A stretch of DNA of 64,000 nucleotides from a virus. The notes under the pieces are model-generated. The model did not search any database, was not told the DNA's origin, and saw only the letters and a program-made list of their open reading frames with translations. The stretch is taken from the IMG/VR virus record IMGVR_UViG_3300046328_000321, positions 32,001-96,000 of that record. One strand, 5' to 3'. This document shows, one piece after another, positions 36,096 through 36,410 of the stretch. The translations under genes and the position numbers were made by a program. Position 1 is the stretch's first letter, and each line of letters begins with the position of its first letter.

Positions 36096-36191
36096 CTCTT
36101 GTAAAAGATTTCAGTCACATATATTCTATTTGAGCTATCGCTGTGGTTTAAGCTGATATATCTGTCAGTACTATCAGCTAAGGAGATAAAT

Positions 36192-36272
36192 GTGGATACC
36201 ATCGACGTAGTTGTCAGCATTGGTAGTTTTATTTACATTATCTTTCTGGTGAAAGATACATTGAAAAAGTGA
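36192..36272 (+). CDS. 26-aa single-TM micropeptide in a cassette frame (copy E)
   Basis: GTG 6 nt after AGGAG; MDTIDVVVSIGSFIYIIFLVKDTLKK; cassette leader and terminator shared with the repeat genes. Confidence 0.65.
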   Translation: MDTIDVVVSIGSFIYIIFLVKDTLKK

Positions 36273-36410
36273 TATAAATATATACACAGCCTGATAAGCT
36301 GTGTATATATTTTTTTAGCTCTTCTAGACTATCTCAATCACTTATACTTTATTTGAGCTATTATAGTTTAAACTGATGTATCTGTCAGTAGTGTATATAA
36401 GGAGATACAA

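What the first reader, a model, noticed from the sequence alone, without database searches (positions are those of the whole stretch)
36098..36316. Same cassette frame loaded with an unrelated cargo: 26-aa membrane peptide
Seen: the leader resembles copy B (gctatcgctgt.gtttaa...actatcagc.aaggagata) and contains the ctgat.tatctgtcagtact block of the other copies. The terminator (atatacacagcctgataagctgtgtatat) is identical to those of copies B and D. The payload, however, is MDTIDVVVSIGSFIYIIFLVKDTLKK. Inference: leader and terminator act as homology arms for exchangeable cargo, an integron-like but recombinase-free cassette platform. The peptide could mediate superinfection exclusion or inhibit a membrane-bound defence or transport protein.
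Basis: partly seen in the sequence, partly recalled or inferred. Interest (0 to 1): 0.75.

Follow-up and report, generated by a model that had tools for sequence, protein, structure and literature searches.

The report
Membrane micro-gene in phage regulatory cassette
A nucleus-forming jumbo phage carries a tiny self-contained gene for a 26-residue membrane peptide. It is framed by the same promoter-leader and terminator modules the phage uses for other genes, and related phages show that genes are gained, lost and swapped at the edges of these modules.

Summary
Window 36096-36318 is a complete unit: phage promoter motif, leader hairpin, strong ribosome-binding site, a 26-codon ORF from GTG at 36192, and an intrinsic terminator identical to those of the repeat-protein (MORN-like) paralogs. 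The 79-nt body shows no detectable similarity to those paralogs on either strand.

The frame is not special to this copy. It is the lineage's standard expression module, with 24 promoter motifs in the 113-kb record, all on the + strand. Besides the repeat family, 13-14 modules of constant architecture drive at least five unrelated cargoes.

Three related IMG/VR phage contigs carry the same module at 84-87% nt identity. They show clean cargo presence/absence at module boundaries. At the syntenic site, this unit and its 47-aa neighbour are absent.

The peptide is probably real. It is far more hydrophobic than composition predicts. Each relative has one module-driven peptide of 28-30 aa with the same N-terminal motif, hydrophobic core and basic tail, and the two copies differ by more synonymous-only than non-synonymous codons.

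The closest known analogue is the PeSL promoter/terminator cassettes of T4-type phages, not integrons. I class this as a new variant of a known kind. The peptide's function is untested.

The parts
35724..36095 (+). Upstream 123-aa gene of unknown function. It has its own short-leader promoter at 35654 and no terminator of its own, so its transcripts should end at the target unit's terminator.
   Evidence: ORF list. Promoter motif 34.7 bits. Homologue at 52% identity at L134 3830-4198.
36096..36139 (+). 44-nt phage promoter motif, directly abutting the stop codon of the upstream gene. It is probably an early promoter read by a phage RNA polymerase.
   Evidence: PWM score 50.9 bits. One of 24 copies in the record, all on the + strand. 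41/44 identical to the copy at genome 97981. The same motif occurs in relatives.
36140..36179 (+). 5' leader: linker ending in TTTAA (36147-36151), a 7-bp hairpin with a 4-nt loop (36152-36169), then a 10-nt spacer.
   Evidence: Fold -6.4 kcal/mol. A hairpin sits at the same offset in 31 of 31 modules of three genomes, with about 10 different stem sequences. Hairpin plus spacer is 26/27 identical to units G and I but 19/27 to the promoter's closest relatives, so the module is chimeric.
36180..36194 (+). Six-base Shine-Dalgarno (36180-36185), 6-nt spacer and GTG start (36192-36194). An out-of-frame ATG at 36190 opens only 6 codons.
   Evidence: Same SD and spacing as 12 other units. The SD is unpaired in the folds of the short leaders. 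The 6-codon alternative was seen.
36192..36272 (+). 26-codon ORF with an acidic N-terminus, a hydrophobic core of about 15-17 residues and a basic C-terminal tail. It is predicted to be a single-pass membrane micro-protein.
   Evidence: hydrophobicity in the top 0.56% of small ORFs; P=0.003 given an open frame; codon usage; similarity to the module-driven 28/30-aa peptides of relatives, P=0.012/0.018.
36276..36318 (+). Intrinsic terminator with a 15-bp stem, 7-nt loop and T-run. The 3' module begins at the stop codon (36270).
   Evidence: Of nine + strand copies of this terminator type, eight follow MORN-like genes and one follows this ORF.
36319..36560 (+). Neighbouring unit E: the same kind of promoter and leader, plus a 47-aa single-repeat stub of the MORN-like family. 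It has no terminator, so its promoter should read into the tasA-like gene.
   Evidence: It is absent, together with the target unit, at the syntenic site of L134.
36727..37572 (+). TasA-like (TIGR-Tas, nuclease-less Nop-domain) gene downstream. It is context only and not part of the cassette.
   Evidence: NCBIfam NF052498.1 at E=3.3e-40, 138 bits against a cut-off of 100. TasH in the PDB at E=1.5e-4. Homologue at 49% identity in L134.

Best explanation
The stretch is an autonomous transcription unit of a chimallin-encoding (nucleus-forming, phiKZ-like) jumbo phage. It consists of the lineage's standard expression module, a 26-codon gene, and an intrinsic terminator whose sequence comes from the 3' end of the dispersed MORN-like repeat genes. 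The expression module is a 44-nt promoter motif, TTTAA, a short covarying hairpin, a spacer, a strong Shine-Dalgarno and a start codon 6 nt later. The gene encodes a single-pass membrane micro-protein with an acidic N-terminus outside and a basic tail inside. The unit was assembled and placed here by recombination between dispersed copies of these regulatory modules, with crossovers in the shared TTTAA-type microhomologies and at the start and stop codons. It arrived together with the adjacent 47-aa unit, between a conserved 123-aa gene and the tasA-like gene. Shown: the module architecture, its reuse for unrelated cargoes, its chimerism, the indels at module boundaries between relatives, and the non-random hydrophobic ORF with look-alikes in relatives. 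Inferred: that the promoter is an early promoter of the virion RNA polymerase; that the ORF is translated; that the peptide acts in the host inner membrane or an early infection membrane, for instance by modulating a membrane protein or excluding other phages; and that the unit's terminator also ends transcription of the upstream gene while unit E's promoter feeds the tasA-like gene.
For: Frame: 24 motifs, all on the + strand; SD 78-84 nt from the motif start in 13 units, 6-nt spacing; hairpin in 31/31 leaders; 25/31 at or below -3.8 kcal/mol against 6.8% of control sites. Other cargoes. Recombination: chimera: 41/44 against 33/44 in the promoter, 26/27 against 19/27 in the hairpin-spacer; promoterless fusion; 95% identical flanks up to the start codon, then a 112-aa cargo in one relative and a 4-codon stub in the other; unit absent at the syntenic site. 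Coding: open frame P=0.12; as hydrophobic given open P=0.003; 5 of 889 small ORFs as hydrophobic; codon score in the top 4.9% of small ORFs; relatives' orthologous peptides: 7 synonymous-only against 6 non-synonymous codons; Smith-Waterman score against composition shuffles P=0.012 and 0.018; of 110 SD-preceded ORFs of 15-45 aa in three genomes, only these three begin Met-Asp-x-Ile/Leu/Val-Asp. Phage type: (chimallin family at 5.9e-30; RNA polymerase beta fragment). Extended AT-rich conserved early promoters are typical of phiKZ-related phages (PMC5312081).
Against: There are no transcription or translation data. Only three peptide sequences exist. Against an unrestricted six-frame null the relatives' peptides rank 41st and 115th of 10,277, so homology is probable rather than proven. 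The start codon is GTG, and an out-of-frame ATG 2 nt upstream could compete with it. The relatives' peptide genes lie at another locus with another terminator. The antisense frame scores as well in codon statistics. The direction of the indel (insertion here or deletion in the relative) is not resolved. The promoter class and transcription start are inferred by analogy only.
Confidence: 0.62

Rival explanations
1. The unit is a collapsed paralog. A MORN-like repeat gene lost its repeats by recombination and the remaining filler drifted, so the 26-codon ORF is a meaningless leftover that happens to be open.
For: The start codon is in exact register with the paralog ATG but is weakened to GTG. 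The terminator and 3' junction are those of the repeat family only. The neighbour E is itself a one-repeat stub. An open frame of this length is not rare by chance (P=0.12).
Against: There is no residual similarity to the family on either strand or at profile level. Hydrophobicity is far beyond what composition predicts (P=0.003). Module-driven look-alike peptides exist in relatives and are kept open, with more synonymous-only than non-synonymous codon differences.
Confidence: 0.15
2. The unit works mainly as a regulatory insulator. Its terminator stops read-through from the 123-aa gene, and together with unit E it supplies new promoters upstream of the tasA-like gene. The short ORF is incidental or only helps ribosome loading and mRNA stability.
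For: The upstream gene has no terminator of its own. Unit E has no terminator before the tasA-like gene. In the relative the 122-aa gene and the tasA homologue are separated by 169 nt without a module. A relative keeps an essentially empty cassette of 4 codons.
Against: This does not explain the strongly non-random transmembrane-like sequence or the similar peptides in relatives. The two roles are also not mutually exclusive.
Confidence: 0.13
3. The product is a small non-coding RNA of about 170 nt, and the ORF is not translated.
For: The whole transcript folds better than shuffles, z=-4.3.
Against: The z-score comes mostly from the terminator; without it z=-2.15. No Rfam family matches beyond noise. 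A perfect SD at the optimal distance is unpaired in the folds of the short leaders. The coding signatures also argue against it.
Confidence: 0.05

Closest known systems
PeSLs (promoter-early stem-loop mobile regulatory cassettes) of T4-type phages (PMC2839356, PMC4122927)
   Same: Both are dispersed composite elements of about 100-175 nt that combine a terminator hairpin with an early promoter and end in a Shine-Dalgarno and start codon. Both sit in front of ORFans. Differences between related phages (insertions, deletions, replacements) map to them. In both cases they are proposed to act as portable homology for recombinase-independent gene shuffling.
   Different: The host lineage differs: a chimallin-encoding jumbo phage rather than a T4-type phage. 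The promoter is a 44-nt phage-specific motif and is probably not a sigma-70 promoter. An additional covarying hairpin lies in the leader at a fixed offset. Mini-circles are not shown. No searchable paper links PeSLs with jumbo or phiKZ-like phages.
Morons of lambdoid phages (autonomous promoter-gene-terminator units inserted between genes that are adjacent in relatives; own knowledge: Juhala et al. 2000, Hendrix et al. 2000)
   Same: The unit is a self-contained transcription unit that is present here and absent between the same two flanking genes in a relative.
   Different: Morons are typically expressed from prophages and differ in base composition. Here the phage appears to be lytic and of the jumbo type, and the cargo (33% GC) does not stand out from the genome (about 36%).
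Integron gene cassettes
   Same: Both involve exchangeable cargoes at a recurring sequence frame.
   Different: Integron cassettes are promoterless, end in attC sites, are arrayed behind one Pc promoter and need an IntI integrase. None of these features is present here.
Small hydrophobic phage or toxin peptides (type I toxins such as TisB, Ibs, Hok; small early membrane proteins such as PhiNM1 Gp11, PMC11237401, abstract only)
   Same: Size class, a single hydrophobic helix with a charged tail, and, for the phage examples, early expression.
   Different: There is no sequence relationship (no Pfam or PHROG hit). No antisense RNA partner is evident, since all 24 promoter motifs lie on the + strand. 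Toxicity was not tested.

Membership tests
PeSL mobile regulatory cassettes | Composite of terminator stem-loop and early promoter within one short intergenic element that ends in an SD and start codon | tested here: met
   The terminator is followed within about 10 nt by the promoter motif at six sites (genome 195/233; window 1347/1384, 14800/14840, 36280/36319; and beyond the window's end 65058/65092, 65946/65981). The SD and start lie at a constant distance.
PeSL mobile regulatory cassettes | Promoter is a strong sigma-70-type early promoter used by host RNA polymerase | tested here: inconclusive
   The consensus scan did not pick the motif out. The motif is conserved over 44 nt, the phage encodes its own RNA polymerase parts and chimallin, and relatives of this phage type use extended AT-rich virion-polymerase promoters (PMC5312081).
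PeSL mobile regulatory cassettes | Indels and replacements between related phages coincide with the elements | tested here: met
   112-aa cargo against a 4-codon stub between 95% identical flanks; target unit plus unit E absent at the syntenic site.
PeSL mobile regulatory cassettes | Occurs in T4-type myoviruses, in their hyperplastic regions | tested here: not met
   Chimallin family hit, divergent family B polymerase, split RNA polymerase. This is a phiKZ-like jumbo phage.
PeSL mobile regulatory cassettes | Excised mini-circles carrying one chimeric element | not testable with these tools
   Needs PCR or read-level data from infected cells or virions.
Integron cassette | attC recombination site, promoterless cassette, adjacent IntI integrase | tested here: not met
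   The unit has its own promoter and terminator. Neighbouring genes give no integrase hit. The PHROG 'transposase' hit of 36727-37572 resolves to a TasA-like Nop-domain protein.
Moron | Autonomous promoter-gene-terminator unit lying between genes that are adjacent in a related phage | tested here: met
MORN-like 23-residue repeat paralog family of this phage | Coding body built of the 69-nt repeat with the family's N- and C-caps | tested here: not met
   Only the regulatory flanks are shared.
Type I toxin-antitoxin | Small hydrophobic toxin ORF plus an overlapping or adjacent antisense RNA gene | tested here: inconclusive
   The hydrophobic peptide is present. No phage promoter motif lies on the opposite strand. 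Sigma-70-like hits are at the level of shuffles. Toxicity was not tested.

The most novel reading that the evidence does not exclude
The promoter / TTTAA / covarying-hairpin / SD module may be a lineage-wide, recombination-driven gene-shuffling platform for the early genes of a group of nucleus-forming jumbo phages. In this reading it is read by the injected virion RNA polymerase, and the hairpin is part of promoter recognition or of an RNA-processing or stabilising signal. The conserved 26-30-residue peptide would be an early effector that inserts into the host inner membrane or the early infection vesicle.
Probability: 0.25. Interest if true: 0.65.

Novelty: new variant of a known kind. Interest (0 to 1): 0.45.

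Why it matters
Three points.

1. Gene shuffling by portable promoter/terminator cassettes was described for T4-type phages. This case suggests it also operates in nucleus-forming jumbo phages, with a different promoter and an extra structured leader. That would help explain how their large sets of small early ORFans turn over.

2. It adds two conserved micro-ORFs that standard gene callers skip: a membrane peptide of 26-30 aa and an 18-aa peptide. It also gives a simple rule for finding more: look downstream of the module.

3. The module itself is a compact, well-delimited candidate expression element for this phage group. It could be tested directly with reporter constructs.

Tried and rejected
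Ideas tested and rejected:
- The cargo as a decayed MORN-like gene. Sense, antisense, profile and N-cap comparisons were all at chance level.
- The cargo as an inverted repeat fragment. A tblastn hint to antisense translations of repeat genes in other phages did not hold up.
- A second copy of the peptide in this record. The only hit, at genome 9470, lies in a spurious frame.
- Tas-flanking sequences as guides against the conserved modules. The 10-mer matches were at noise level. No tandem array was found.

Searches that found nothing:
- Known families for the peptide: none in Pfam or PHROGs. tblastn against phage records found nothing. Profile searches with HMMER returned nothing for such short queries.
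- Relatives by leader or terminator pattern, or by single proteins: nothing. Other phages with MORN-like genes do not share the modules. Relatives were finally found with the promoter core.
- Extra relatives through the gene upstream of the relatives' peptide: none beyond the three known contigs.
- Rfam: only sub-threshold noise.

Tools that could not be used:
- The search for homologous proteins refuses queries under 40 aa.
One script had to be rewritten with references, and one DNA-pattern scan of metagenome contigs for the relatives' peptide-gene leader was not run.

Full report
WHAT IS THERE

The window is bases 32001-96000 of a 113,368-bp IMG/VR virus record estimated to be 43% complete. 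It encodes:
- a divergent family B DNA polymerase (PF20286, E=1.9e-208), whose nearest tblastn matches are jumbo phages of Bacillus, Ralstonia, Burkholderia, Serratia and Pseudomonas at 34-40% identity;
- a chimallin-family protein at 43922-45757 (PF25677, E=5.9e-30);
- an RNA polymerase beta fragment.

It is therefore a phiKZ-like, nucleus-forming jumbo phage.

The finding sits at 36096-36318. Read directly from the sequence, the unit contains, in order:
- a 44-nt motif that abuts the stop codon of the upstream 123-aa gene;
- a linker ending in TTTAA;
- a 7-bp hairpin;
- a 10-nt spacer;
- a six-base Shine-Dalgarno;
- a 6-nt spacer;
- GTG at 36192;
- 26 codons to TGA at 36270-36272;
- a 15-bp-stem terminator with a T-run.

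CHECK OF THE OBSERVATION

The terminator palindrome is identical at 1347, 14800 and 36280. The 18-nt leader block has 6 exact copies in the window against 0.34 expected, and 9 copies in the record. Eight of those nine precede members of a dispersed family of 23-residue-repeat (MORN-like) genes. The ninth precedes the 26-codon ORF. The GTG is in exact register with the paralogs' ATG.

The 79 nt between about 36190 and 36270 are not detectably related to the repeat genes:
- Local alignment scores equal those of shuffles on the sense strand (P=0.56; P=0.78) and on the antisense strand (P=0.20).
- A profile of 39 repeats scores the region at -0.4/-1.0 bits.
- An apparent resemblance of the first codons to the family's N-cap is not significant (P=0.45).

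THE FRAME IS A GENERAL EXPRESSION MODULE

A weight matrix built from the 15 window copies of the 44-nt motif finds 24 sites in the record, all on the + strand. In 13 of them the same six-base Shine-Dalgarno lies 78-84 nt from the motif start and 5-6 nt before the start codon. Besides the repeat genes, this architecture drives unrelated ORFs of 106, 118 and 229 aa, an 18-codon ORF and the 26-codon ORF. Another first-stage reader reported a hammerhead behind one further copy (I did not test this).

Two composite elements of about 175 nt are nearly identical to each other: repeat-gene end, terminator, promoter and leader. They are followed from the ATG onwards by unrelated, GC-richer cargoes.

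Every leader has a 4-7-bp hairpin starting directly after TTTAA, but the stems differ. Across 31 modules in three genomes there are about ten different stem sequences. Of these, 25/31 are at or below -3.8 kcal/mol, against 6.8% of 398 control TTTAA sites. The hairpin is weak thermodynamically (z about 0-0.9 for single leaders), so the argument rests on position and covariation, not on energy.

PhiKZ-related phages have extended, AT-rich, highly conserved promoters for the injected virion polymerase (PMC5312081). Assigning this motif to that class is an inference.

EVIDENCE FOR RECOMBINATION AT THE MODULES

Within the genome:
- The target's 5' module is a chimera. Its promoter and linker match the subtype found at genome 233 and 97981 (40-41 of 44), against 32-33 of 44 for units G and I. 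Its hairpin and spacer match units G and I (26 of 27), against 19 of 27 for the promoter's nearest relatives. The switch lies in the shared TTTAA region.
- Unit H has no promoter. The end of the preceding repeat gene runs straight into the leader hairpin through the same short motif.

Between genomes:
- A scan with the promoter core uncovered true relatives: IMG/VR records 3300021440_000015, 3300046313_000168 / 3300046096_000189, and 3300046313_000313.
- Their core proteins are 58-75% identical in the median and are syntenic.
- At the DNA level, only the promoter-leader module of my 2.5-kb query is recognisable in them, at 84-87% identity and at many sites.
- In one pair of relatives the flanks are 95% identical up to the start codon. 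One phage then has a 112-aa cargo and the other a 4-codon stub, and homology resumes at the terminator and next promoter.
- In the syntenic locus L134 the homologues of the 231-aa, 123-aa, TasA-like, 233-aa and polymerase genes are all present. However, the 122-aa gene (3830-4198) is followed after 169 nt by the TasA homologue (4368-5213), with no module in between.

The target unit and the adjacent 47-aa unit E (together 36096 to about 36560) are thus an indel between two conserved genes.

IS THE PEPTIDE REAL?

In favour:
- The frame set by the ribosome-binding site stays open across the whole filler (chance 0.12).
- Given an open frame, only 0.3% of composition-preserving shuffles are as hydrophobic.
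- Only 5 of 889 ORFs of 20-40 aa in the record reach its 15-residue hydropathy.
- Codon usage is in the top 4.9% of small ORFs and at the 24th percentile of real in-frame windows.
- Each relative has exactly one module-driven peptide of 28-30 aa with the same first five-residue pattern (Met-Asp-x-Ile/Leu-Asp), a comparable hydrophobic core (2.4-2.7) and a basic tail.
- Smith-Waterman scores against the target exceed composition shuffles (P=0.012 and 0.018).
- Among 110 Shine-Dalgarno-preceded ORFs of 15-45 aa in the three genomes, only these three start that way.
- The two relatives' copies differ at 7 codons synonymously and at 6 non-synonymously, with 15 codons identical.

Against:
- In an unrestricted six-frame ranking the relatives' peptides are 41st and 115th of 10,277.
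- The start is GTG, with a competing 6-codon ATG frame 2 nt upstream.
- The antisense frame scores as well in codon statistics.
- There are no expression data.

I put the probability of a translated, functional membrane micro-protein at roughly 0.7-0.8. The whole explanation, including assembly by module recombination, is at 0.62.

HOW IT MOST LIKELY WORKS

Transcription starts at the unit's own promoter. Read-through from the 123-aa gene, which lacks a terminator, also enters the unit. Both end at 36312-36318. The unpaired Shine-Dalgarno loads ribosomes on the 26-codon ORF. By the positive-inside rule (established knowledge), the product would sit in the inner membrane with its basic tail in the cytoplasm. 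What it does there is unknown. Modulation of a host membrane protein, superinfection exclusion or a role at an early infection membrane are guesses.

The unit also has a plausible cis role. Its terminator insulates the upstream gene. Because unit E lacks a terminator, E's promoter probably reads into the TasA-like gene. In the relative, by contrast, that gene follows the 122-aa gene directly.

COMPARISON WITH KNOWN SYSTEMS

The closest described system is the PeSL cassettes of T4-type phages: composite terminator/early-promoter elements of about 100 bp that end in an SD and start codon, flank ORFans, and mark the indels between close relatives (PMC2839356 sections 13 and 16; PMC4122927 abstract). 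Three of the defining features are met here. The sigma-70 nature of the promoter is doubtful, the phage group differs, and mini-circles could not be tested.

The unit also fits the moron definition. It is not integron-like: it has its own promoter and terminator, no attC, and no integrase. The nearby PHROG 'transposase' hit is a TasA-like Nop-domain protein.

In the searchable literature, none of the eight top-listed of 418 papers from a combined search on PeSL and jumbo/phiKZ terms contains the word PeSL.

VERDICT

The novelty is moderate: a known mechanism in a new phage group, with a new module design and new micro-protein families. Limits of the analysis are set out under 'tried and rejected'.

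Noticed in passing
window 36727-37572 (+), with flanks 36555-36726 and 37573-37868: A nuclease-less TasA-like (TIGR-Tas) gene: NCBIfam NF052498.1 at E=3.3e-40, 138 bits against a cut-off of 100. It is conserved at 49% identity at the same position in relative L134 (4368-5213). No regular 36-nt array was found by TRF. The downstream 290 nt is ORF-poor, has several short recurring words and long-range inverted repeats, and ends in a strong terminator at 37830-37868, so it may hold stem-loop-type guides. Other first-stage readers of this genome also noted this gene.
   Followed up: partly
window 14840-15010 (+): A second micro-unit: the same promoter type, a hairpin leader, an SD, an 18-codon ORF (start 14929) and its own terminator. 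The 18-residue peptide is conserved in relative G001 at about 111.9 kb (Smith-Waterman score 66 against 18.5 +/- 4.5 for shuffles).
   Followed up: partly
all modules: window 160-185, 870-900, 1431-1456, 14118-14143, 14885-14910, 36147-36169, 36366-36391, 41151-41176, and loci of G001/G003: A hairpin starts immediately after TTTAA in 31 of 31 promoter-leader modules of three genomes, with about ten different stem sequences (covariation) and loops that often contain a TCT-like core. Whether it acts in the DNA as part of the promoter or in the RNA is open.
   Followed up: partly
L012:1560-1660 (genome 97560-97660; about 65.6 kb on the window scale, outside the window): A promoterless repeat gene (unit H). 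The end of the preceding repeat gene is joined directly to a leader hairpin through a shared short motif, deleting the terminator and promoter.
   Followed up: no
L011:150-650 and L012:1900-2440: Two nearly identical composite elements of about 175 nt (repeat-gene end, terminator, promoter, leader) are followed from the ATG onwards by unrelated GC-richer ORFs of 106 and 118 aa. The 106-aa ORF has a homologue behind the same leader type in relative G003.
   Followed up: partly
relatives: G003 reverse strand 91829-91990 against G001 21059-21500: An essentially empty cassette (module, ATG, three codons, stop, terminator) in one relative, where the other has a 112-aa gene between 95% identical flanks.
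   Followed up: yes
window 36319-36560 (+): Unit E encodes only a 47-aa one-repeat stub of the MORN-like family with an altered C-terminus. It lacks the family terminator, and homology to the paralogs stops at the short motif just after its stop codon.
   Followed up: partly
window 43922-45757 (+) and 60081-61079 (+): A chimallin-family protein (PF25677, E=5.9e-30) and an RNA polymerase beta-like fragment (PF00562, E=3.7e-11). These place the phage among nucleus-forming jumbo phages.
   Followed up: no
window 41692-41728: The terminator of repeat gene F lies between convergent genes (41196-41684 + and 41737-42546 -) and is a near-perfect palindrome, so it may terminate in both directions.
   Followed up: no
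many IMG/VR records (loci L013-L091): The MORN-like 23-residue repeat family is widespread and multi-copy in large phage contigs (403 confirmed stretches, several records with 3-5 copies). None of these records shares this phage's promoter, leader or terminator sequences.
   Followed up: partly
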